From contig OZ336873.1 of NCBI GenBank assembly GCA_965287045.1, forward strand, positions 37,200,001-37,264,000: a DNA stretch of 64,000 nucleotides, given 5' to 3'. Position 1 is the first letter of the stretch. Every line of letters begins with the position of its first letter. Below are positions 42,713-61,906 of this stretch, piece after piece. The notes below the pieces were generated by a model. That model had not been told where the DNA came from, made no database searches, and saw only the letters and a list, made by a program, of their open reading frames with translations. Made by a program: the position numbers and the translations under genes. The stretch is from Carcharhinus amblyrhynchos (Eukaryota).

Positions 42713-43009
42713 CAACATTTGTCTCCGATTCTTATCTTACCATTTAATCATCAAACGCATAAAAAAATTCAAACAGCACATGCCTGTGCTCTCTGATAAA
42801 ACTATTAAGTACAGCCACAGTATATATATTTTTTTCTTATTTATTAAAAATGTATAGCCATTTCTGGATTCCAACCAGCCATATCATATGTTAGACAGCA
42901 CAGCTTTATAAGCATACAAGGTAAAAGTAATTCAACTCTGACAATCTACTACTGCACTAGCTATTTCTATCAGAGCAATTGAGACATTTAAACAATAAAA
43001 AAAAGTTAC

Positions 43010-43068
43010 CTGTTGTGTTTTTTCTTGGATAGCATAGAGTTCTAACTAAATATTTTCAACACAAATTC
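43010..43068 (-). other. Exon-shaped segment, closed in all three frames (non-coding or decayed exon)
   Basis: tttttgtaacAG|...CAG|GTAACT. The best frame reads ICVENI*LELYAIQEKTQQ. Confidence 0.25.
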
Positions 43069-44058
43069 CTGTTACAAAAATGCTATGCTTTTGCCCATAA
43101 ATTATACTGTATCCTGTTTGTCCCATTTATTCAAAGTGTGTATTGTACTATATCAAATTAATATTAACCAGTGGGAAATTTACATGTTTTATAATTTTTT
43201 TCACTGCAGTTTAGAGACATATTGTCATAAGGAATGTCTGACTTGCAAGCCAGACATTCTTGGCATAAAGGTAGCTCACTTGACATTATTAAATATGGTG
43301 CCAGGTCCTTTCAATTTAGTATTTTTGACAATTGAAAAAAACAACTGATTTTTCTACAGAAGTTTACATTTAAATTGTTCAAAAGGTTATTGGATGCAGG
43401 TGAATGGGCTGACCATGTAGCACGATGTTAGATACTTGCATGGATATTCTTAACAGCTTAGATGGGTTTGATATATCACCATAATTACTTGCTTCCCCAC
43501 CAGGATGATGATACCCCTTCAAAGATTACTAAACCATTAACTAGAATCTCGTACTTCAATCTGAACAGCTGTTTATAAACGTTCAGAGTAAAAGTTCTGT
43601 GATGAAGAAATTGTCCACTTAACCTCAAGAATACAAGTCACAACATTTGTTGTACTTACTGTATAATGTGATTACATTCAGCAGTGGATAAGAACAAGTT
43701 TCCCTGTTTCAGTGAAGGCTTCTCCCTAGTGGACATCCATTAGGATGGAATTATTGTCCCCTTTGTAAGACATACAGAGTAATTTCTATTACGTTTCTTT
43801 AAGCTATTTCTCAGACCAAGTAACATACCCATTAAATAGTAAAAACCTTCATTCAAAAATAGCCAGAGAGAAAGCTGGTGTGCTGAATTAGATCTACAAT
43901 ACTAGATACACTGTACAGAACCCAGGCTTTAACTTCCAACCAAAGGGATAACATTTTCTCATAAATGAAAGTAAAATGTGCTACACTGAAACTTCAATAG
44001 CTACAATGTTTTGCCCCAGTGGGGCTTATTTTATAGAGAGGTGAAGCACCTCAAACTT

Positions 44059-44218
44059 TCATTCACAGTCCAAGATCCTATAGTAAAATATCACCAGATG
44101 TACAAGGGTAGAAAAGAAGTCTGTGGATCTGTGATCAGGATGTTGTAAATATGCAGACATTTTATAAACCAGCTGTCCTGTCTGTATGGCCAGGGTAGTA
44201 TGACTTCTTGAAACTGTT
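44059..44218 (-). CDS. Candidate exon (TVSRSHTTLAIQTGQLVYKMSAYLQHPDHRSTDFFSTLVHL...) ending in TGA
   Basis: Very strong polypyrimidine acceptor gtttttcctttttcttttgtttttgtatttgttggcAG|. Open in phase 2, so compatible with either upstream candidate exon. Confidence 0.3.
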
Positions 44219-44567
44219 CTGCCAACAAATACAAAAACAAAAGAAAAAGGAAAAACAGCAGACAGCTCCAATGTAATACAAATCTTTTTTCAATATGAAC
44301 AATTCAAACAATTGTCCATGGTTAAAACTGCTTCATGGTATAATGAGCACAAAGCCTTAAAGCCTTCATTACTGGGTTTAGCACACCCCAGGATGTCTCC
44401 ATACTGAGCCAGTAAATATCCAGTGCACATTGGAAAGGCTGTGGAGGAATTGGCAGCTTCCTTCATTTCTTCTAAATCTGCCTTTAAGTACATTTTATTA
44501 GTGAATCACAACCAAAATAATTAAATCCAATGCTGCATCTAAAACAAGTTTGAACTATCTCACTTAC

Positions 44568-44622
44568 AGTTTTGGCTCTCTGCAGAGTTCCAGCTTGACC
44601 TCCTGCTCAAATCCTCTGTTCC
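44568..44622 (-). CDS. Candidate 55-nt internal exon (GNRGFEQEVKLELCREPK)
   Basis: Acceptor cttttcactttataacAG| and donor ACT|GTAAGT. Open from phase 1 to phase 2. Confidence 0.33.
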
Positions 44623-46479
44623 CTGTTATAAAGTGAAAAGTCCCAGTCAGGTTGTGCAACGTGGATCATATATGATTCCAAATAATCCACTTAGAGAGAA
44701 ACAACTTCAGAAAATATAGTATCCTCTGCAGCATCAGTGTAAAATCCCTTTCACAGAGTCAGCTTCAGTAAGCTATACTTAGCAACACTTGTCACATAGG
44801 TGATTAAAACTGGAAGGATACATTACTTCAATTTATTTACTAAGAGTAGATAATTTTTGACCTGCCTTTGCCAGCAATCCAATAATCTGAATTAACTTAA
44901 TATTCAAGTGTCAACATTCATCAAAAGTGTTATTGGTAATTGGCTTGTCTTGCTCATACCAAGAGTTACAAGTTTCACTTTTAGAATGGAAAAAAGGAAA
45001 TAATTTTGTATAGCAAGAAGGAATAGTGAATTTTGTAGAATCAGAGAGATGCTACATTAGACATATCAGATGGTTGCTTCACCCTTTAACTTCACAAGTT
45101 TTCTGTACATCACCATGTCACTTGGTAGAGAAGTGACTATGATCCTTATCTAAATTCATGTCTGTTGCTCTCAGTTGAATATTGTGCACCATGCTGTTAT
45201 TATTTCTCACTTTTAAGTTTCAACTTTAGAAGCATGATAGAGCCAGTGACCAACCAGGACTAATCGAGCTCTCAAAGATTGAGGAGAGTAAATCTGATCG
45301 GGTGACCACTACCTAAATGAAGTCTGCAGCACTTTAAAGGGAAGGTACATTGTTTGTTTGGTGTTAGCAAAAGAAATATTCTGGAATAGCAGGCAGTGTG
45401 GCTTCAACCAGGACTGCAGTCCAAGAAGGGGATGCTCTTCTGCTATAATGGACAATGGGTACTCAATTTTTTTTGCAGCCTTGGAGGGGGTGGAAGATCA
45501 TGTTAATATCACAAGGATTGTTCAAAGGCCTGGCTGCAGTGCTGGAGAAAATGTAATGAGCTCACTAGGGCTGCTAAGGTACATCTCGCTTAACCATCTC
45601 TCAAGCTTTCCACATGGCCATGTAGCACCATTATTTGGTTCAGCAAATCAATCTTTCCTTCATATAGAGGCCAGAAGGGGTAAGAATGATGGGTTTCATT
45701 CCCTAAAAGATATTAAGCAGCCAGTTGTTTTTTTAATGAGAATCTGACAGCTCTGTGATTTGCTGGTTTATCTAACTGGCCTCAGGAAAATGCAGATATA
45801 ATCACTGACTTGGGAGGATCCCTCACATTAGAGAACATCAGGACCTACTCTCTTTTCTGTCCATTGGAAAAATCATGGAAGTTTTTTCAGTTGCTTAATG
45901 GAAGCATGGACAGCAAACTGACTGATGCCATGGACATTTCCTGTGGCAGCCTGGAAGCAGCCAGAGGAAAATTCAGTCAGGTCTGTAGCGACCTTGACAA
46001 CAATAAGTAATTCTGTTCTAGCTGTGGATTGCAGGATGGTTTTACAATCCAGTGACAGCTTCACTGTTCCTAAGTAAACTGCAGGTATTTTGTACTTTGT
46101 TGGAATGGCAAAGATTCCTGCAAGCTTGCCCCCTTCTATTTGTTCCTTCCTCCATTGGCTGTTACTGCCAGATTCCTTGAAGCTGGAAACAGCCAGAAGC
46201 TCCCACAAAAGTTAATGGTGCTCTGCAGCCACCACAAGTAATTTGAAATGGTCTATATGACAAAAACCACAATGCAATGCAATCAGAATGTCTCCCAAAA
46301 ACCTTGAGTGTTTCAACCAAGTGCAGCTGAAGAACAGTTTAAATATCACTAGAAAGGTTGGTTCTCAATGTGTACTATACGTGCTGTGTACCTAGAACAC
46401 GTAGAGATAAAACAGCAACAGAGAGTACTAACTACTTCATTTGATTCCAATTTTCATTTGTTCATTAGATATAGCACTT

Positions 46480-46612
46480 GGGGTGAATGGGATCAAATGT
46501 TATGGAGAAAAAGCAGGATTAGGCTATTGAGTTGGGCGATCAGCCATGATCGTAATAAATGGCGGAGCAGGCTCGAAGGGCCTCCTCCTGCTCCTTTCTT
46601 CTATGTTTCTAT
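46480..46612 (+). mobile_element. CR1 3' UTR fragment
   Basis: gatcagccatgatc...ggcggagcaggctcgaagggc...ctcctgctcct matches 25025-25095. Confidence 0.75.
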
Positions 46613-46989
46613 CAGTCCCTGATTGATTTGAGGTCACCCCAGAAGATTTAAAAGAAGTGGACAACAGCTGGTAGGACAGAGGTTCCATTTCCTACTCAAC
46701 TTTCGTCCTGTTTTTTACATACAAATTAGGGTGTTAGTGAATGAAAATCATCTCCTAGCTTATAGTAGTCGTAAAGCCCTTTGAGAAACCTAAAATTAAT
46801 AAAATAGGAACATATGCCACTATATGATCAATGTAGAATCCATTTCCTATCTCATTGCTGACACTTTGAACCTAAGATAGTCGGAACATTGCATTTTCTA
46901 AATGGTTGGAAGCTGGGAACTAGGAGGGAGCCGAAAGATTTAGAGTTCTAAGTACAGAAATCACTAAACACCAGTAGATTGATACAAAA

Positions 46990-47680
46990 AATTTTAAAGG
47001 GCAATGGAATGCTGGCCTTTATCTCAAGGAGGCAAGAATACAAAGGGAAGGAATAAAACACCAGCTAAATCCCATTTAGAATACGTCATGCAGTTCTTGA
47101 TACTGCACCTTGGACAGATGGGGGTGTTGTACTAACCTTAGAGAGGGTGGAATACATATTCATTAGGATGATTACTGAGGCTTAAAAGGCTTCATATACA
47201 GAACAGGTTGCAATGACTAGGTAATTTTCCCTTGAGCATAGAAGATTGAAGGGTTACTCAACTGAGATGTTTTAAGATGCTTAAAAGAGTTGATAGGGTA
47301 GAAACTATTTCTTCTGGTGTAAGAATCCAGGACATGAGGGCATAATCTTAAAATTGGAGCAAGGATGTTCAGAGATTCCAGGAAGCATTTCAAAAATATT
47401 AAACTGAATTAAAGTGCTTTGGGACATCTGGCGGTCATGAGGCAGGTTATAGAAATGCAAGTCTTTCTTTTTGAAAATCTGAAACTCCCAAAAGATTGTT
47501 GAGGCCATGTCAATTAAAAATTTCAAAATTTAGATTGCTAGTTTTTTTTATTAGACAAGGGTATGAGTGTTATAGAACCAAGGCACATAAATGGAGTTAA
47601 GAAACAGGCCAGCCATAATCTAACGTTATGACAAAACAGGTTTGAAGGGCTGAATGACCTCTTTCGGTCCCTACAATCCT
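46990..47680 (+). mobile_element. Old CR1 LINE 3' end
   Basis: Degraded equivalent of 24450-25095 (aatggaatgctggcctttat..., agaagattgaaggg..., gaagggctgaatgacct). Confidence 0.75.
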
Positions 47681-48324
47681 ACCAAAGTCTGAGAATTTAA
47701 AAATGGTTCTAAATCTCTGAATCACGCTCACCCCTCAAGTATGTAATGTACCAAAGACACAAAATCTCATTTTCTAAAATGTGACAGCACTCTTGCAGAT
47801 AAATAACACATTTTCATATGCCCTTAGGGAAATTTAGCTGCAATTGTATAATGCTGCATAAAAACAATCACAAAACACTTTAGTTCTAATGAGTAGTTAA
47901 TAACTGTTCCCTTCACATTATGTTATTTTCTTCTGGTTGACAAATAGGAAAATCACTATTGTACTTCCACAGACTTTTTCTCTCAAACTGTCAACAGGAA
48001 GAATTGAGTCATTTCAACTTTAGTATTAAACTTTTTCTAGCTTAGTATGTTATCTTCAGCCAATCTTCCACCCAGAGAGAAATTTAAAAACTCATCAGAA
48101 TGGGTTCCTGAAGTTCCCATTAGCTCAAACCATGGCAACAGTACCTGCATGAATAGTTAGATTAGACAACACCAGCAATACAAAATTGGGTAAAAAAAGG
48201 TGAAATTCCTCTGATTTTTAATTTTACTGGAAAAAATAGCATAAAAGAAATATTTTTCCACTGTGTACTGATGCTGGCTTACTTGATAAAATTGACAGGA
48301 AGAGTCAAACATTCGAAGAGCAAA

Positions 48325-48755
48325 TGAGCTTTCATTTATGTTGCACCTTTCATTACCTCAGGATGCCCCTAGGCATCTTACAGAAGTATTTTTGAAGGTT
48401 AACAATTGTTGGAGTGTAAGAAATGGGGTGGCAAATTTGCATGCAGAAAAATTCTTAAGTAGTAATGAAATAAATGGCATGATCATCTACTTCAGATGTT
48501 GATTGAGGAATAACTGTTCACCAGAAAACCAGCATTCCTTTTCTTGTCTTCATGTAGTGCCATAGGGTTTTTTCCCTCTACCCAAGAGGGCAGATGGGCT
48601 TTGGATTAACATCTCACCTAATGGCACTTCCAGAATTACAACATTCCCCCCCATGATGCACAGAAGTGCCAGCCTGGAATATGTGCTTAAGCCATTATAG
48701 TCGGGCTTGAACTTTTGATCTTCTGACTCAGGCGATAGTACCACTGAGCCAAGAC
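48325..48755 (-). mobile_element. Deu-domain SINE (SacSINE1/AmnSINE1-related) with L2-like tail
   Basis: On the minus strand: a tRNA-like head (ttggctcagtggta...gttcaagccc), then gaggtgcc..gagatgttaa.cc...gcccatctgccctct...aaccctatggcact, resembling the recalled Deu domain. Confidence 0.6.
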
Positions 48756-51322
48756 CGACAAATTACACATAATGAACAGTCACAATATTCAAATAATTTA
48801 ATTATTTTGTTGATAATTAACATCCAATTGGAATTGGAAGTGCTAATTATGGATTGCAAAATCACTACCATTTCACTTTCAAAATGTTTTAGCTCATCAG
48901 TTCCAACAAACATTTTAATAACCACATAAAAATGAAATCTAAGTGACATCTTAAGATGCAGTTTTACGGTCACTGTTACATCAAAGCAAACCAACTTCAC
49001 ATATTAACTTAAAAATGACGTTATCACATAGAAGTAATATCATTACACGAAAACTAAGATGTGAACACTCCTCTGGGGTGAGATGAGTGAAGACTTTTTG
49101 AGTTTAGTCCACTGTATTATAATTCTTAATGTTTCATTTAAAAAGTTGCCAAGTGGTCCACTGGACTTTCTGAGAACTTTGAAAGTTAAATTTATAGTCT
49201 CTTTAACGGTAAGGGAAAACATATCCTGCCAAACACTTTCTAAGGGAAGGGAATAATTAGGAATGGGTTGCAATTGTTGGCCCTGTTAGCGACACTCACA
49301 TCCCAGAAGCAAATAATAACTAACTCAGAAATTAATGCACGTACCACCTTGTGCTGGCAGTATACAATAAGAGTAAGCAGTTTTATTCCGTTCCACTGAG
49401 CAGCCAATTCTACAGGTATCAATCTGGAAACAGTAACTTAAGTATAACTACAGTCTTGAGTAATGAATCACTTCCTTCCTTGACTTTGTCTATCCATCAT
49501 TATTCTTGGTTTAGCTTTCAAAAAAGGAAGTGATGCATGACATCATTTTCACATCTTAATCTTTAGCTCAATTGCAACTTGTTTAAAATACTACCAGTCT
49601 TCTGTGACAGTATTCACAGTAAGTCAGATGATGTGCTGTTACATAAGGACAGAAGCACACAGTGGTAGATTTTTAAATTCATCGTCCAGACAGCAATCTG
49701 GTACAGATCATACACCCTTTCCAGAATTTGCCTGATTTTCATTGCATTGAATTAATGGAGCAAAAATGAGGTGGGTTCTGTAAAAACAGTGACTACTTAA
49801 ATTATCCGGCATTTCTTTCCAGACCACAAAGATGAATTGCTGAAAACAGGCACATTTTGAGTCACAAAGACGGTACTGACATTAGTGAAGGAAATTTTAC
49901 AGATTGTGGTTCCCAGACACCTGTCAAACAAAATAAGGAACAAAATCCTACTTTCCTTTCTTTAATGACAGTGAATCCTGTAAACTGCAGATATTCAAGG
50001 CATTGGCCTTAGTTGTCCTTTTTCTCACTCAAAACATCAGTTCTATAAAAATGTTCCCAAAGATCTTAAAACACCAGCTGAGATCACAATCAATACCTAA
50101 TCAGCTGCAAGTGTTAATAATGTATATTTTGAAGCAGTTACAACAAAATTTGCATTTCAAGTACAGTACTTCTGCAGTGGAGCCATTTCCAATGGCAGTC
50201 TCAGTGATGATTAGACTTAGGGCCTAGGTCCACATAGGATCAGGAATGTACCCATCTTCTGGGTCCAAATGAGTCCACATGGGTTTGGGTGTGTATACAT
50301 CTTCGAGGTCCATGTGGGGTTGTGGCTGCAGTGGCAATTCAAACCCCGACATCCACATGGACAAAAAGAGGTCCAGCAGCAATCCATCAGTGATCATGGT
50401 CTTCAAACTTAGATACAGAACATTCTTTGCATATTTCAAAGTGTGACATTAGACATATCCCGTATGTAAACATATAAAAGTGTTTGCTATATTGCAAGCT
50501 GTCTGTTTTTGGCAGTTTCAGTTTTTTGCAGGTTTCACAACATTGCTGATGGGCAAAATTCTCCCATTTTGAGACAAAATGCAATGGTGGAGCCTATGTC
50601 ACTGGCCAGAATGACATGCCAGATTTTGCGCTTGAAACTTCGTTAATTATACCAGTGAGTTCCACTCTGACTCTCCCAGCAGGTTGGCAGCTAATTCATC
50701 TGCCTGCCCTCAGCTAACGGGTTTGAATGTCCTAGCACAATTTTAAAATACCAATCCAGCACACTCCTATCACTCTTTCCAGCATACCTACCTCTACCAG
50801 ACTGTGCAGGAGATCAGCAACCCAGAAGGAAAAGGCTAGCAACTTCAAGAAGAAGTCTGTTCCTTGATTTAATCACTGTCCTCTCCACTGCCTATCACCT
50901 GCAAGCCCCACTTGGCCTTTTACCGATCACCTCTGGAATCTTTATCCATCCCCATCCAATAAACAAAATGGTATCCCTTTAACCCCTTTGTTTCAAATTC
51001 ATTGCCCTTGGTCTTCCCTCTATTTTCCATTGTTTGTCTTCTTTATTCACCTCTTTGTCCCTCTGCCTGCCACCATGAGTCCTCACCTACTCTTCTTCTC
51101 TCTCCCCTCCTTGCAGAGCTCTCATTCCACATGGACCCTTTGTCGTCGTCAGGCTACCATTCTGAGCAACTATTAACCTTAAGTTTGCAACTGTTTAAAC
51201 CAATCTTGCCTTTCTCTTAAAATGGTATGACACCATAATCACAAAGAAGGAAAGTCTCCAGGAAAGCAGCTTTTTTCAAACTATTCCCTCAATTATAGAG
51301 GAAAATATATTACTCAAAAATT

Positions 51323-51641
51323 TGGGCGGCAAACTGGCACAGTAGTTAGCACTACTGTTTCACAGTGCCAGGGACCCTGATTCGATTCCAAGCTTGGGTC
51401 AGTGCGGAGTTTGTACATTCTCCCCATATCTGTGTGGGTTTTCCTCCAGGTGCTCCAGTTTCCTCCCAGAGACCGAAGTTGTGCGGGTTAGGTGAATTGG
51501 GCGTGCCAAATTGCCCTTTAGTGTGAGGAGGACTAACTAGGGTAAATGCATGGAGTACTGGGGATAGGGCCTGGGTGGGATTGTGATTGGTGCAGACTTG
51601 ATGAGTTGAATGGCTTTCTTCGGCACTGTAAGATTCTATGA
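51323..51641 (+). mobile_element. Full-length HE1-like tRNA SINE
   Basis: gggcggca..tggcacagtagttagc (A box), gattcgattcc (B box), V-domain and a CR1-derived tail gattctatg. Confidence 0.88.
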
Positions 51642-51801
51642 ATTTTTTTGGAAATTTTAAATATTCTTGCTGGGAATATCTGCACATCTCTTTCTCTGCA
51701 CAGTCTCTTTCCCAGCTAGACTGTCCTGTTGACACCACTTAGGCATAACATTGCAATTATTTTAATGCAAACTGCAAGGAAGAAGATGTCTTCAGACTGA
51801 C

Positions 51802-51934
51802 CTGCGGGCCACTTTGTAGCAGGAACACAGGAAACCATGCTGCAGACTGTTTTGAAGTCCTACTTCGTTTCCAGTACTGCATTCACAATTGTTGTTATGG
51901 GTAATTTTGTAATCTCTCTCATTTTGAAGGTCCG
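51802..51934 (-). CDS. Candidate internal exon of the unidentified minus-strand transcript (ADLQNERDYK...GFLCSCYKVAR)
   Basis: Weak acceptor aatacAG|, strong donor CAG|GTCAGT. The 133 nt are open in the phase-1 frame required by the 54330-54228 exon. Confidence 0.33.
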
Positions 51935-52964
51935 CTGTATTATAAATTCATCATCTGACGACATTTAATAAACATCAACTTGCACACATATACTAACTTT
52001 AAACACAGTAATTCTGTTAGTATCATGTAACTTAACCTTTTCAAATTTATACATTTTTGTGCTTATTAACATGAAGTGCTGGGAAACTTGCACTTCTTCC
52101 ATTTTGAACAACCAATGTCAATGTGAAGATCATGTTATAGGACAACCAGATGTCCTCAATCTATCTGAATTTAAAGAATATATCCCAGCAGATTAATTTT
52201 CCACACCAACAATCCTTGCAGTCTGAGTGGTAATGTCAATTTAATAATGTAGACTGTGCTGTGCCTCAAACTGACAAACTGTGAACTGGTTTTAGACTAC
52301 CCAAACTGATCTCACAGAAGGCCTTTACAGTTAGCAGATGGAGGAAAAAAAACCATTCAGCCAATCTCGGCTGCACTGAAATCCTGCTTCTAAAAATCTA
52401 TATTCCAAGTACCATCACATGTTGAATCACTCCCAAAATACGGTTTCTTCTTTTCTGAAAAAGCCATGATCCCCTTTAATGCGCTCCATTAAAATAAGGA
52501 GATAGTCAGTAACATATGAAAGAACATTTTTAGCCTGCTGGCAAACAACTCTAAGAGTGTCATTATTCGCAATTTTGTGGTTTCTACATCAGAACAATCC
52601 AAAAACAACAGTCTGACTCTGGTTTCATTCTGACTTTAAATCAGGGCCTCACATTGGAGGCAATTTCACTTTGCTTTGGCTTGGCATTACGTGCAGTATA
52701 ACTCCAGCACAATGTTTTGTCAAGCTTAAGAAGTACTTAGGGCAGTCACTGGATCGCCTGGATATTTTGTAAACCTAAGCAGGGCTTGTTTAAACATTTT
52801 GAGAGTGTGGCTACTCTCTCCATTTAGATTCGTGCCAAGAACAGGGAAGTCCGCAGATATGGAAACACCTCTCTCGTGGCGAGATGCTTTCAGTAGCAAA
52901 GCAATATTATAGTTAAAGGTACAAACTTACTTACAATAACCACTTGATATGTTATGCTGCCAAT

Positions 52965-53825
52965 ATTTGACTCAATTTATTCTTGTCATGTATTGGGATA
53001 CAGCGAAAAGTATTGTTTCTTGTGTGCTAAACAGACAAAACATGCCGTTCTTAGAGTAATTAGGGGAGAAGGAAAGGAGTGGGTGCCAAATATAGTGTTA
53101 CAGTCATAGCTAGAGTGTAGAGAAAGATCAACTTAATATACTATATGGTCAATAATCAAATTCCACTATTTCATTATTTGTGAATTTAATTTTTGAATTG
53201 TTTAATATCACTCACTGACTTCATGCAAAGACTGACCCAATTGTTAAAAAATAAATTTCTAATGGAACAGATTTGATATGATTTATTATTGCACATGGGA
53301 TATAGCAAAAAGTATTGTTTTTGTGCACTATACAGATAAAACACACCATTCATAGCATACATAAGGGAGAAGGAAAGGAGAGGCTGCAGAATGTAGTGTT
53401 GCAGTTACAGATAGGGATAAAGATCATCTTAACATATGGTCAATAATAGAATGATACTTTTTCATTATTTGAGCATTTAATTTTTGACTTATTTAAGTCA
53501 CTGATTTTATAAAAAGATTGACCCAATTGTTAAAAACTAAACTGTTGATGGGATAGATTTGACTTGATTTATTTTCCCACAGATAGGGATTCAGTGAAAA
53601 TTATTATTTCTTGCGTGCTATACAGACAAAACATACCGTTCATAGAATACACAGGGCAGAAGAAAAGGAGAGAGTGTAGAATACAGTATTACAATTATAG
53701 AAAGCGTGTAGGGAAAGATCCACGTAACATATGGTCAATAATAGAATGGTACTATTTCATCATTTGAGAATTAATTTTTGAATTATTTAACTTCATTGAC
53801 TTTATAAATAGATTGACAGAATTGT
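52965..53825. repeat. Diverged tandem triplication of a ~290-300-bp unit (Rex1-type 3' UTR plus unique flank)
   Basis: Units start at ~52966, ~53271 and ~53558. Each contains atatggtcaataat...ttcattattt...ttgac(c)caattgt. Confidence 0.85.
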
Positions 53826-54150
53826 CCCAGGACCAACCGATTCAAGAGCAGCTTCTTCCCTGCTGCCATCAGGCTTTTGAATGGACCCACTTTATATGAA
53901 GTTGATCTTTCTCTAAATCCTACCTATGACTACATTCTGCATTTTCTTTTCCTTCTCTATGTGATTCCAAATAAACTGTTGGACTTTATCTTGGTGTTGT
54001 GAGACTTCTTACTGTGCCCACCCCAGTCCAATGCCGGCATCTCCACGTCACACCTTCTCTATGCACGGTATGCTTTGTCTGTATAGTGCGCAAGAAACAA
54101 TACATTTCACTGTCTACTAACACCTGTGACAATAATAAGTCAAATCAAAT
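53826..54150 (+). mobile_element. Rex1/Babar-type 3' end with a nested Penelope-like fragment (53962-54052)
   Basis: RTNRFKSSFFPAAIRLLNG with a tcaaatcaaat tail. The inner fragment is flanked by the 11-bp direct repeat CCTTCTCTATG (53951-53961 and 54053-54063). Confidence 0.8.
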
Positions 54151-54227
54151 TTAAAAGTAAACTTCTGATGGGACAGAAGGCTTCACGTTAGCTTACAGTT
54201 TGTGAATGGAAGTATGTAAATAGTTAC

Positions 54228-54330
54228 CTCTACTTGTTTCTGCCAGTTGACCTTCCACTTCGGCCAAGGTCAAACTTGGTCCAAGTGTCAGGTCACTTGG
54301 CCACTGACCCAGACCCTCAGGGGTGGCCAT
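54228..54330 (-). CDS. Putative first coding exon of an unidentified gene (MATPEGLGQWPSDLTLGPSLTLAEVEGQLAETSR)
   Basis: Strong Kozak ccgccaacATGG just downstream of the CRE in the CpG island, then 103 open nt ending at GAG|GTAACT (phase 1). An alternative donor ACT|GTAAGC lies at 54196. No homologue recognised. Confidence 0.45.
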
Positions 54331-54960
54331 GTTGGCGGTGACGTCACGGGTTGCGGGGGGGGGGGGGGGGCTCGCTTGCCCCCCCCCCCCCCCCCAAGGT
54401 TCCAGCGAGGAGGGGGTGTGGCGCGCGGCCAGGGGCCACACAGTGTGTGTGGGCGATGCTGTCTGAAGCGCAGAGATAACAGCCTCTGTACTGCGCGGGG
54501 GAGAGAGACAACCCAGGCACGTCCAAATAAAAGTGCAGCCACGCAACACAATATTGACATGAAAACTTGGAGGGGGAAGGAAGGGGGAAAAAGGACTCAA
54601 TTCACCTGTAAACATGTCACCAGGAGGTTCCCAGGTACAGGTCGGATCTGCAAAGCTGAAGCTCCCCACGGGGACATAGATAATCACCTTCCCCCACCCC
54701 CTTCCCTTTTTGCCTCCTCTCTGGCAGAGCGAGTGCATTCTCTTAAGGGGGTAGCTGACATGAAGTTCCCAGAAGTACATCCGCAGCTGCAGGGCAACAT
54801 CCCATACAGTCCAGAGACAAGGGCTGCTTGTGTGTCCCCTCAGTGAGGAGAAAACATTTTTAAACTGCAGACCCAACAGATTTTGTTTTAACCCAACTCG
54901 TGTGATGAGAAAGCAAATTGAAACTCAGCAAGAGCATTCCCCCCCCGCCCTCCCCCCTCA
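54230..54960. promoter_or_regulatory. CpG island / promoter-like region with CRE (GTGACGTCAC, 54338-54347)
   Basis: Abrupt rise in GC and CpG content. Contains a perfect palindromic CRE, a YY1-like AACATGGC overlapping an ATG on the minus strand, and GC-box-like G/C tracts. Confidence 0.75.
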
Positions 54961-57900
54961 CCTTATGATCCAAGCATCTCCCCCAAAGCACTAGATTATT
55001 GGCGCCTGTTCCCCATACTTTACATGGCACTCATTGACTGTTTTACTGGGAGTACGAAAACAAGAAAAAAAGATGAATGAAAGCAGAGCTATTGATACAT
55101 TTTCGCAGCATCTCAGATTTCTGTTAATTATTTGACCGCGCTTTAACAGGCTTTTGTTATGTTTTGTTTTGAGGATTGCTGCAGTTGTGATCTTCCCGAG
55201 TTTGGTAATCCTCAAGGATTTGTCTTAGGGTCAGATAGGTATCAATTCAAATCAAGGAGGATTACAGAGGAATCCAAAACTGCCAACAATGAATGAGCAA
55301 GTTTTAATTGTCACCTGACCTGAGTATTGCACCTCATAGGAACAAGTGCGAGGTTTATTCCTAGCTCAGTTTTGCAGAATAATCTACACACATAGACAAG
55401 CCATTTGCTTTCGTTTACTATCTACGAATCTCTTATTGTGGGGATATAAAGGAATTGTTCTTCGACATTCAGAGGGAATTTTTATGGGGCACTTTATGGC
55501 GTGCTGATACAATGTTTTGTTGGAACCCAGTGCCGAACGTGCTAACTTTTGGAGTTGAATGTTCCACCTTTTTTTCCCAAAGCTTTGACAGATTTAGTGT
55601 GAAGGCATGACACAACATATGTGACATTTTCATCTTTATAATTAAATCATTGTAAATACAATAAATTTCGGTATATTTTAGTGGAAAAATAACGATGCTA
55701 GAAGGTGAGAAACTTCATTCGCACCTGTTTATTTTAAGTTACAAATATGTAACATAACGGATTTGCATTTCAAACGATTACGCCAGACGAAGCAGGATAA
55801 AAATTTTTAGGCAAGCTGAAATATAAAATTCACACAGTTATGCAATAATATTTCTTGCCTACGGAAAAGCCAGTTCTACTGGTATATGAAAAATAATCGA
55901 ATACTAAATTCGTCCTGACTGGAATTAAGATTTCCGAATAGTGCGTAACTTTGAATAAAGATTTTTGTTAGGATCTCGCAATCCGTTGTTTAAATGCAGA
56001 GGTTTATCCTTTCTTTTTAACACTAGCAGTAATTAAATGCTACAATTGTATTCTCTGACCGTCACTTTTGAAAACCAAGTGTATCCTTGCAGTGACAACC
56101 TACAGCCACCACCCTCCCTGCCCCCACCCCCGCAAAGAACACATTTTATTTCCCACCATCAAATGCGATTCACTCAATTACAGAGGACTTAAACACTATA
56201 ATTAAATGATGTAAAAAAATTGAAAGGTCAGTGTATGGATGGCCATTGGGATTCGACTGTGCAAATAAATGCGAAACGGAAGAATTCTTCAGGACAATTT
56301 ACGCTTCAACCCTGCGATTTCCTTCTGAACAAATACAGCGTGCACTGAGACCATTCGTATTTAAATTCCAAGCTCGTTAGCGCTTCAGGTGAATGAAAAG
56401 ATTTGGACTATAAGCTAAATCAAAATATCTTTCCAGTTATCCAATTTATGGTCCTGATGGGAGGTTATCGAATATGTACATTTAATATGTATTTGGAATC
56501 GAATTACACGATTAAAATATAGAATTAGTTCAGTGCTTTTTATGAGGATTGATGCAGACCCAATCAGTTATTCAACGCAAACATTCATCATCGCCTCCAT
56601 TTAAATACAAAGCAGAAATTGAGTAGTCGACTGTTGTGTGCGCCGATCTTAGGTGTAAAGTGATATTTCAGCCTATTTTATTTCGTTCCAAAAAATAGTT
56701 TCCAAGGGATCGCTTTCACTAGATTCTGCTTCAGTGGAGGTACAGCCATTCTAAAATAATTGTTTCCGGTGTTTACTAGATTTCACGTCGACGAGTGTGA
56801 TTAAAGAAATCGCTGAATAGAAATCTGTTAATTTGTTATTTATAACCGATTGAACCGCCGAGAATGTTCACGCATGCTTCGAAATGATTTGGAAATAACT
56901 TTGGGATGAGCTCAGAAAGTTTCCACCTATTTGACAGTTTCCTCTGTGCATGTGTATGTACTGTACTTAAATATAATTTAATTCCTTTTCGTTCTACTTG
57001 CATTGAAGGGAAAGGGAAAACTTTTAAATGATTTTGCTATGTTAAATTTGCCCGATTGCATGAATGCCAGAGCAGTAATTTTAAAAGTCGGCTAGATGTG
57101 CTCTGTGATATTAGACCAAGCCAGGCCATCCATAGCAAGCATAGCTTACGCTATACAAACTTCAGATTGATTAGTGACTTTGCTTCACTTTAAAAATAAA
57201 TCATTTGCAGTCTCTTCAACTTTACATTACGTGTTTTGACGTGGAAAATTAATCGTCTGGCGGTGAAAGAGGATACCGATCTAAAGTTATGTTTTAACAA
57301 TGCATAAATAAGTCTCTCCCTTGACAGTTTATCTGCTGATAAACATGCCGGAAGCTGATGCACCATAGACAAACAAAAGTCTTCAATTTAATCCCGTATG
57401 AGTGCCAGAAGACAAAAGGACGAAGCGAATACCCGGAGCATTTGCAAGGATCATTTAGCATCCAGCCCTGTAAATATTGGGTAACTTGGCTTGTTGTAAA
57501 AACCCAGAGAGGATACCGTGCTCGAATTAACAGTTCCTGCATTGCAGGAAGTGCAACGATGTGTAAAATTAAATGCAGCTGTCGAAAAGGGGGGAAAAAG
57601 ATCACTTCAATAAAAGAAATGCACTGTTCAAGGCAAATACCTGCGGTTTCATGAGTATAAAGGCTATGCGATCTTTATTGGGACTCATAGATCTTTAGTT
57701 CCGAAAGGGACGGAGACAGTGTTCCATGGGAATGTAGTAAAGTGAAAAGCATTATTGGAACAGGGCTTTTAGTGTTTATTTCACCCAATGTCCCTGCGAA
57801 TGATTGGCCTGGTAATAGCAAAGCAAACATGAAAATGTGGTATAGATTTTTAGCCTCATTAAGGAAGCGCTCACCATTTAGCGTCAGTCAATCAATTATA

Positions 57901-59949
57901 ATCACGAGTAAAGACACAAGGCATTATTATAAAAACACACTAGCCCGGTGATATTGCAAATGAGGAGATGGCTCTGCCGGTGCCATTCCCGGTGACGAGA
58001 AATCAACTTTGCATTTTACCCAACTAAAGTTGATCTTAAAAAGTGAACCCAATTAACAGGAGGACGCAGTGTGTGAAATGTTCCTTTTTTAAAAAACGTG
58101 GTCTTTAAAAAGTTTCAGTAAAATCAAAAACGTAATTATATATTTCTTGTAGCTTAATGTCATATTATATCGATCCCCTAGTTAACGCCGTTTAAAAATA
58201 ATGTACCACCAAATGTGCTCTAACATATAGATATTTGAGTGTTCGAACAGCATCATGCTTTTTGAACGGAAGTTAATTCAAAGAGGCAAAATGTCTTTCA
58301 AACGTTCAACAGGCTGAAGACAGTGGCTTAACACAGAAATGTGTGTGTGGTGAGATGTCGGGGAACACGCGTGTCCGAGATGTCGAACACCAGGATGGAA
58401 ATGTTATCATAATCGTTGGTCTAAATAAAACCTGCAACCTCTTTCTTAAAGATCTCCACTTTCAAATAGATAGAATTATATAAATGTAGCAAGTTGTTAA
58501 TTCCCCCACATCCTCTTCCGCGTCTACTAACATTTGAAATGAAAAGCCTATCTTGTCGGGACGGTAGCTGTAAACCAGAATCCAGTTTGACCGTACTGCA
58601 ATGATGACAAGTGCACCTATAAAGCAGAACTGCTGCCTTTGCATTGTCTTCCTCACTTGGTGCCACCCCTTGCAAATCCTGTACTACTTTCCAACTTGCT
58701 GCTACTGTTCCTGCAATATATGTGGCCACTGACATGAATACCGCTTTTGTTGTGCCTAATGACAAACTCACAAGATTATTCCACATCCCAGAGCAGTCCT
58801 GATAATCCACTTCACGATTTAGTAAACTTGAGCCAATTGGTGGAGGTTGTTAGGATAAAACTCGCAGTGCAATACAAAATATTCTAGATGTGGAAAACGG
58901 TGGCAAGTTTCATCTACAACAAGTTCCACAATCCATGTTGCGTCAACAGTAATTCAGTCCATATAATCTTTTGGATTTTTTTTGTAAAGCAAGTTTTCCA
59001 ATTCCGTAATAAGATAGACAAATCCGGGTTGCAGTACATTTGAACATACGTGACTTCACAACCGTCTTATAGTGCAAGCCAACCCTTTACAGGTCTTACA
59101 CACTTGGTTCAAAGTAAATGCATTTTATATAAAACACACAGTTAGTGGCTTCGGCGCGATAACTAATTTCACAGATAAGAAAAAAACAAATATCCAGTAC
59201 AAAAGCAATTACCAGAGCTAAACCCAGCTCCTCCCATCAATAGTAACTGAGGGACGGAAGGAGCCTGATCTAATCGATACTGTAATTAAAGATCCTATGA
59301 AGCGACCAGAGAGTGAGGAGCACGCAAAGAATTTATAATCCTGTCCCTGTGAGCACTTTATGAAGGAAAATCATTGGGAAAAGCTCCCACTGTCTCCTTC
59401 GATGTCAATACTGTGCGAACAGCAAGCAGGAGACAGCTCGAAAAGACTGTCAATAAGATCTGCTCGCTTTTTCTTTCATAGAAGCAGCAGCGAGGAATTA
59501 TTTCCAGCGGAAAGGGGGCGTTTAGGCGAAAGTTATTTGTCCAATTCCCCCACGATCCCCTGCTAGTGCACGGCAACGAAAATACCTCAATCAATTGGGT
59601 CAATATTAAAACGCAGTTTGATTAAGTTGCCAAACATCCTACACAATCTACTAGTTACTGCAACTCTTGGGGTGGAATCAGTTAACTAAGAGGATAACAT
59701 TTTTAAGTCTCAGAAATTCAGACTACGGTAGTCTACGAAATGCAAGTGCATGGAGGTTCAACTTTGGTACAATATGTAGTCCAGCCTGCAGGCTGTGCTT
59801 TCAAATAGTGGTAGATGGGCAATGGATATCAGAATATATCACATAGCTCTGCCCATCAAGTTCTCATCCAGTAGTTTAAATAGACAACATTTGATTATAA
59901 TTGCCAAGATGCTTATTAAAAGTGTACATCTGATTTCATGTGATGATAT

Positions 59950-61465: not shown

Positions 61466-61906
61466 TCAGTTTGATACAATTTCTTTGTTGTCTTCCACCA
61501 AGCGGGTGAATTTATGGTTCGTTCCATTTTCAGTGGTTGACATTTTCTCCAGACCAGCTAGAGGTGCACTGGGTTCAGTATTGTGAAGCTTCTCCATGCT
61601 TCCCGTTAAACCACTGATGGGCGAGCTGCCACCATTGCCCAGACTAGCAGGGTTTGGAGGAAGTCCACCATTCTGAATCACTGAAATCTCATTGGTCTTC
61701 ATCGCTAAGCCATTCGTTAGTGCCGCTGCGTACTGGTTCCAAAATGAAGAAGGGTCTCCGTCACGAGCTCGAACAGCCAAATCCTTCTGAAGCATTTCCG
61801 TGAATTTAATGGGATTTCCACTTAGGAATGCCATGGGACCATCCACTGAAAGACGCCGGCCTCGCCTTGCAGGGGCACTGTTCCACATGTGTGTCCCCAT
61901 ATGAAC
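61466..61906 (-). CDS. SALL1: Sal-like protein 1, last coding exon (146 aa + TGA)
   Basis: [44 protein letters not shown]...[31 protein letters not shown]...[14 protein letters not shown]. The C-terminus matches SALL1 (human ...FTRFVEDSKEIVTS) better than other SALL paralogues. Confidence 0.97.

What the first reader, a model, noticed from the sequence alone, without database searches (positions are those of the whole stretch)
43010..54400. Candidate unrecognised spliced gene starting at a CpG island 7 kb downstream of SALL1
Seen: a CRE, then a Kozak ATG (gccaacATGG, 54330) and a 103-nt open exon ending at a GT donor. Further AG/GT-bounded minus-strand segments lie at 51934-51802, 44622-44568 and 43068-43010, and a very strong acceptor at 44218. 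Two phase-compatible open chains exist: exon1 + 51934-51802 + 44218, and exon1 + 44622-44568 + 44218. Both give short proteins I cannot match to anything. Recalled knowledge: in mammals the region 3' of SALL1 is a gene desert with lncRNAs before CYLD. Inference: this is a shark-lineage or anciently lost bystander gene, a micropeptide-encoding lncRNA, or a decaying gene. Exons were picked by eye, so some phase agreement could be chance.
Basis: partly seen in the sequence, partly recalled or inferred. Interest (0 to 1): 0.7.

Follow-up and report, generated by a model that had tools for sequence, protein, structure and literature searches.

The report
Orphan promoter downstream of shark SALL1
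A promoter-like stretch sits 7 kb past the SALL1 gene and likely starts a non-coding RNA, but the proteins proposed for it are chance exon picks, cut short by a stop codon in a close relative.

Summary
The 5' end is real, the proposed gene is not supported. At 54346-54228 (-) lie a CRE, a TISU/YY1-like ATG (10 of 12 letters) and a good donor, in unique GC-rich DNA; the CRE+ATG pairing arose in 0 of 3000 shuffles. The downstream exons are no better than chance: 183 splice-bounded segments against a control mean of 167, and fewer open chains than in control DNA. In a relative about 1.5% diverged, the frame that both proposed chains use after 44218 has a stop, and three exons are not more conserved than introns. 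No protein relative or Pfam domain was found. No RNA could be laid, so transcription is untested. Best reading: a housekeeping-type promoter and first exon driving a spliced non-coding RNA with a short ORF, like JPX. New lead: the other two SALL genes here are each followed on the same strand by an ATP9 flippase gene, and the one behind SALL3 has a similar CRE+TISU promoter. The orphan could be the relic of a lost third ATP9, but no ATP9 sequence remains.

The parts
54339..54346 (-). Full palindromic CRE (TGACGTCA), 8 nt before the ATG
   Evidence: one of 3 in 464 kb
54323..54334 (-). TISU/YY1-like element holding the ATG at 54330; 10 of 12 letters of the TISU consensus
   Evidence: 58 such sites in 464 kb, so common alone; consensus as given in PMC5577775
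54228..54330 (-). Candidate first exon from the ATG, 103 nt, 34 open codons, phase 1, donor GAG|GTAACT; weaker second donor after 54197
54355..54395 (-). G17 run, 8 nt, C16 run: an inverted homopolymer pair just upstream of the CRE; would form a long hairpin if transcribed
   Evidence: -62 kcal/mol for 101 nt, z -3.45; low-complexity, so weak
54300..54600 (.). GC-rich core, single-copy, marginal CpG island
55500..59500 (.). Broad low-GC domain that keeps CpG (o/e 0.7-1.2), between SALL1 and the core; likely unmethylated in the germline (inferred)
51802..51934 (-).
44568..44622 (-).
44059..44218 (-). Segment after the pyrimidine-rich acceptor at 44218; frame used by both chains has a stop at 44184 in organism C; the frame reached by direct splicing from exon 1 (76-aa product) is untouched by that change
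43985..44670 (.). Block of low divergence that covers intron as well as exon-like DNA; possibly a conserved non-coding element
   Evidence: scan p 0.02-0.3 by window size in organism C
43010..43068 (-).
61466..61906 (-). Last coding exon of SALL1 (name from recalled motifs and from CYLD synteny)

Best explanation
The CRE, TISU-like ATG and splice donor at 54346-54228 are likely a housekeeping-type RNA polymerase II promoter and first exon that would drive a spliced non-coding RNA away from SALL1, with at most a short, non-conserved reading frame. Inferred mechanism: CREB/ATF at the CRE and YY1 at the ATG element start transcription at the edge of SALL1's CpG-retaining 3' domain; U1 at the 54227 donor protects the minus-strand transcript, while the opposite direction meets a poly(A) signal within 150 nt; the donor would join whichever strong acceptor is near, 44218 being the best candidate. 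Shown: motifs, their rarity as a pair, lack of exon-specific constraint, the stop in a relative. Inferred: factor binding, transcription, splicing, exon use.
For: CRE within 30 nt of a Kozak/YY1 ATG in 0 of 3000 shuffles (CRE alone 16, ATG motif alone 456). Donor at 98.7th percentile. From 54380, minus strand: first donor-like site +150, first poly(A) hexamer +807; plus strand: first hexamer +145, first donor-like site +1321, the U1/poly(A) asymmetry of directional promoters (recalled; search listing only). The ATP9 promoter behind the SALL3 paralogue in this genome has the same build: several CRE-like sites, a 10/12 TISU ATG, a short exon and GT. Against coding: stop in organism C; 6 of about 28 changes fall in 274 exon nt where 3.8 are expected; no homologue, no Pfam family over its cut-off in 80 local ORFs or 258 ORFs down to CYLD. 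A 124-nt, 94% copy of the exon 1/intron 1 junction sits in a CR1 element on C22 between 8-nt direct repeats, compatible with an RNA template but not proof of one.
Against: No RNA evidence of any kind. The motif pair was chosen after the fact from many possible promoter motifs, which weakens the shuffle result. CpG o/e of the core is only 0.5-0.65. Strand skew over 43000-54200 is weak (AT -0.016 +/- 0.013, GC -0.044 +/- 0.017, against AT +0.05 to +0.10 over CYLD) and fits a replication gradient as well. The promoter and exon 1 were not compared in any other species. The direct exon 1 to 44218 product (76 aa) is not refuted. The splice matrices are approximate and recalled.
Confidence: 0.5

Rival explanations
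1. The GC core is a CRE-bearing regulatory element at the edge of SALL1's 3' domain with no stable spliced transcript; the ATG context and donor are coincidence, and the block at 43985-44670 is a separate enhancer.
For: TISU-like ATGs are common (58 in 464 kb). Internal exons match chance. The best-conserved part of the tested 2 kb is the intron 44219-44567 (0 listed changes in organism C, 4.9 expected). The SALL3 paralogue also has a CpG-retaining domain 9-17 kb past its last exon, with no CRE-type 8-mer of the three tested.
Against: Tight, ordered CRE-ATG-donor layout and the strand asymmetry of donor and poly(A) signals.
Confidence: 0.27
2. A small shark protein-coding gene, most plausibly exon 1 spliced directly to 44218 (76 aa), or a chain with exons not yet found.
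For: The 44184 change in organism C is synonymous in this frame, and A and B show no listed change there. The acceptor has the top pyrimidine tract. One search looked only at proteins of 78 aa or more.
Against: phmmer over 1.84 billion representatives with a query holding exon 1 found nothing at E 0.001 (no shark control was run). Atlas recognition 1886, below 2300. One synonymous change is what 1 of 3 frames gives by chance; 2 changes in 160 nt against 23 in 983 is not a significant deficit (p 0.25).
Confidence: 0.12
3. The promoter is the relic of a third ATP9 flippase gene, lost from the SALL1 block after the vertebrate genome duplications, and has been kept as a non-coding promoter.
For: Both other SALL genes found in this genome are followed on the same strand by a P4-ATPase gene, starting 22.5 and 59 kb past their last exons; the one behind SALL3 has a CRE-cluster plus TISU promoter.
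Against: No ATP9 remnant in the 464 kb: tblastx finds 5 exon pairs between the two ATP9 genes but none in the interval; profiles of those 5 exons give best E 0.44; no Pfam P4-ATPase hit there. Promoter/exon 1 DNA is no more alike than shuffles (423 and 411 of 500 reach the score; the two ATP9 genes against each other 19 of 500). Exon 1 phase differs (1 against 2). CRE plus TISU is a common housekeeping build.
Confidence: 0.1

Closest known systems
JPX lncRNA first exon (Hezroni et al. 2017, PMC5577775; passages read)
   Same: TISU-like ATG near the start, a short first-exon ORF with no conserved peptide, promoter-proximal sequence as the meaningful part.
   Different: JPX has RNA, ribosome footprints and a known ancestor (USPL); here transcription is untested and no ancestor is detectable.
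TISU/YY1 housekeeping promoters (Elfakess and Dikstein 2008, PMC2518114; passages read)
   Same: ATG element 10 of 12, GC-rich unique DNA.
   Different: The mismatches fall in positions 5-12, which that paper reports as needed for transcription and translation; distance to the start site is unknown.
SALL3-ATP9B and SALL4-ATP9A tandem pairs (names recalled; arrangement seen)
   Same: Promoter behind a SALL gene on the same strand; CRE-like sites, TISU ATG, short first exon.
   Different: No flippase exons follow and no sequence likeness above shuffles.

Membership tests
   Stop at 44184 in organism C in the frame both chains use (two runs, one sample)
   6 changes in 274 exon nt, 3.8 expected; 3 of 5 segments tested; low power
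   no shark positive control for the protein searches
   The cross-species comparison covered 42950-44950 only
Spliced lincRNA from a TISU/CRE promoter | Promoter motifs and donor in order | tested here: met
Spliced lincRNA from a TISU/CRE promoter | Capped, spliced transcript | not testable with these tools
   No RNA run was on offer
CpG island (GC over 0.5, o/e over 0.6, 200 bp) | Composition | tested here: inconclusive
   1 of 20 windows of 200 nt passes (54401-54600)
lncRNA derived from a lost coding gene (ATP9 ohnologue) | Syntenic position | tested here: met
lncRNA derived from a lost coding gene (ATP9 ohnologue) | Residual sequence likeness to the lost gene | tested here: not met
Known structured RNA family | Rfam match at gathering score | tested here: not met
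   0 matches in the window

The most novel reading that the evidence does not exclude
The orphan CRE-TISU promoter is the last trace of a third ATP9 flippase gene that sat behind SALL1 after the vertebrate genome duplications: all coding exons are gone, but sharks kept the promoter and first splice donor for hundreds of millions of years as a non-coding transcription unit at the border of the SALL1 regulatory domain.
Probability: 0.1. Interest if true: 0.65.

Novelty: new member of a known kind. Interest (0 to 1): 0.3.

Why it matters
If only an unannotated lincRNA promoter, it is one of thousands, of modest interest for its place beside a developmental regulator. If it is an ohnologue's promoter that outlived its gene, it would show directly that a bystander promoter can be kept for its regulatory role after the protein is lost, testable by alignment across sharks, rays, chimaera and gar.

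Tried and rejected
No RNA holder listed for 44450-54440: no evidence either way. Protein searches: exon 1 plus 10 codons, 78-2000 aa targets; 51934 exon; 243-aa frame holding exon 1 by phmmer; a 71-aa frame in the conserved intron 44293-44505: nothing. Pfam: 3 peptides; 80 local minus ORFs gave 6 weak hits, E 0.014-0.097, all under cut-off; 258 minus ORFs of 70 aa or more down to CYLD gave none, a CYLD exon control hit; plus-strand ORFs of the 664 listed were not scanned, and exons in shorter frames would be missed. First exon of a known gene further down: rejected on those scans. Repeat or paralogue origin: island and exons are single-copy. Metagenome pattern hits: 4 loci, 23-nt matches only, chance. 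Paralogous non-coding likeness to the SALL3/SALL4 3' regions: none for the island or the block. Decayed gene with 44218-44095 joined to 43068: each lineage has one stop in that chain (44184 in C, 43044 here and in A, B), which would fit decay but cannot be told from chance or polarised. Papers: no paper held all of SALL1, CYLD, shark, synteny or 4 of SALL1, SALL3, ATP9A, ATP9B, paralog; seen as listings only, nothing on this locus in the titles or abstract starts shown; no supplements were read, and those of PMC5577775 could list this locus. Earlier notes of the scan: none near, two unrelated.

Full report
Setting. The window is G000:C4:37200001-37264000. The exon at 61906-61466 (-) is the end of a SALL gene; two paralogues lie on C8 (63%) and C16 (48%). 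CYLD lies 400 kb away on the plus strand, as around human SALL1 (recalled).

Observation. All coordinates check out and both chains are open here, 131 and 105 aa. A third join, exon 1 straight to 44218, gives 76 aa. The segment 43068-43010 has a stop in every frame. The GC core is a marginal CpG island beside a broad CpG-retaining domain at 55.5-59.5 kb.

The 5' end looks real. There are 3 CRE palindromes in 464 kb and 58 ATGs matching TISU at 10 of 12 or better. In 3000 dinucleotide shuffles of the 500-nt island a CRE arose 16 times, a Kozak/YY1 ATG 456 times, both within 30 nt 0 times. The motifs were chosen after the fact, so this overstates the case. The donor ranks at the 98.7th percentile. 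Going away from SALL1 a donor-like site comes first (+150) and a poly(A) hexamer late (+807); going towards SALL1 the order is reversed (+145, +1321). The island is single-copy.

The downstream exons are chance-level. Chains from exon 1 giving 105 aa or more number 2 (strict) and 20 (loose) in the real region, against means of 22.6 (0-81) and 99 (12-451) in 20 control blocks. Only the 44218 pyrimidine tract stands out, tied first of 491.

Related species. Six runs hold the stretch, none on record as RNA. Contigs of 4 runs (3 samples, organisms A, B, C) were laid on 42950-44950: 5, 26 and 28 changed places; 40 rows were shown and 11 hidden, by my count 9 of B and 2 of C. In C, 44184 turns CAG to TAG in the frame that both chains use, leaving 90 and 64 aa; in the frame of the 76-aa join it is synonymous. 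The three segments covered carry 6 listed changes in C where 3.8 are expected. The quietest DNA is the intron 44219-44567 (0 listed, 4.9 expected), inside a block 43985-44670 with scan p of 0.02 to 0.3 by window size: a hint of a non-coding element, not of exons. At 43044 C reads CAG where this genome, A and B read TAG, and two changes in that frame are synonymous; this cannot be polarised. Exon 1, the promoter and the 51934 exon were not covered, so the central ATG is untested across species.

Databases. No homologue for exon 1, the 51934 exon or a 71-aa frame in the quiet intron. No Pfam family over cut-off in 80 local ORFs or at E 0.001 in 258 minus-strand ORFs down to CYLD, with a CYLD control positive. 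No Rfam match. I ran no control showing that shark proteomes are in the protein collections.

The paralogue lead. Both other SALL genes are followed on their strand by a P4-ATPase gene, with first exons 22.5 kb (C16) and 59 kb (C8) past the last SALL exon. The C8 promoter has a cluster of CRE-like sites, a 10/12 TISU ATG, a 77-nt coding exon and a GT: the same build as the orphan. But tblastx that finds 5 exon pairs between the two ATP9 genes finds none in the SALL1-CYLD interval, exon profiles give nothing better than E 0.44, the promoters are no more alike than shuffles, and the exon phase differs. The support is position and architecture only.

A side witness. A 124-nt, 94% identical copy of the exon 1 3' end and intron start is inserted in a CR1 element on C22, between 8-nt direct repeats, at a place where a local CR1 copy has about 15 other letters. 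Three control stretches of 1.3-5 kb have no such copy. An RNA template from an unspliced 5' end would explain it; a DNA template would too. Strand skew is weakly in the minus-transcription direction but also fits a gradient from CYLD.

Mechanism and comparison. Most likely a CREB/ATF- and YY1-driven promoter at the edge of SALL1's CpG-retaining domain makes a spliced non-coding RNA whose first ATG opens a short dispensable frame (binding, transcription and splicing inferred). This works like the JPX first exon (PMC5577775, passages) and TISU promoters (PMC2518114, passages). Membership among lincRNAs needs RNA that I could not obtain; membership among conserved coding genes failed the frame test for the proposed chains; membership among lncRNAs from lost genes met synteny and failed sequence likeness.

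Verdict. Observation partly confirmed; protein chains not supported; promoter with non-coding RNA 0.5, regulatory element without transcript 0.27, small protein 0.12, ATP9 relic 0.1. Interest 0.3.

Noticed in passing
L002:1436-1565 (G000:C22, near 29966400): A 124-nt copy (94%) of window 54264-54141, spanning the exon 1 donor, is inserted in a CR1 LINE between 8-nt direct repeats: a templated insertion of unique DNA or unspliced RNA.
   Followed up: partly
window 43985-44670: Low divergence in related organisms over intron-like DNA; candidate conserved non-coding element of the SALL1 domain. Holds a 71-aa minus frame (44505-44293) with no homologue.
   Followed up: partly
window 55045 (-): An AG with a pyrimidine tract as strong as 44218 lies 700 nt upstream of the island; could accept SALL1 read-through splicing.
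   Followed up: no
G000:C4:36135210-36136385 (-) and 36375134-36375714 (+): DUF3512 (BRD7-like, name recalled) exons occur twice in inverted orientation 240 kb apart: a local duplication or an assembly artefact.
   Followed up: no
G000:C8:37594970-37594830 (-): The promoter of the P4-ATPase gene behind the SALL3-like gene has five CRE-like sites within about 100 nt before a TISU ATG.
   Followed up: partly
window 55500-59500 and G000:C8:37637000-37645500: Both SALL1 and the SALL3-like gene have a CpG-retaining domain some kb past their last exon; none was seen directly behind the C16 paralogue.
   Followed up: no
G000:C4:36830000-37260000: T-over-A skew falls from about +0.1 over CYLD to about -0.03 near SALL1, like a replication skew domain.
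   Followed up: no
window 54395-54355: G17 and C16 runs 8 nt apart form an inverted pair directly before the CRE.
   Followed up: partly
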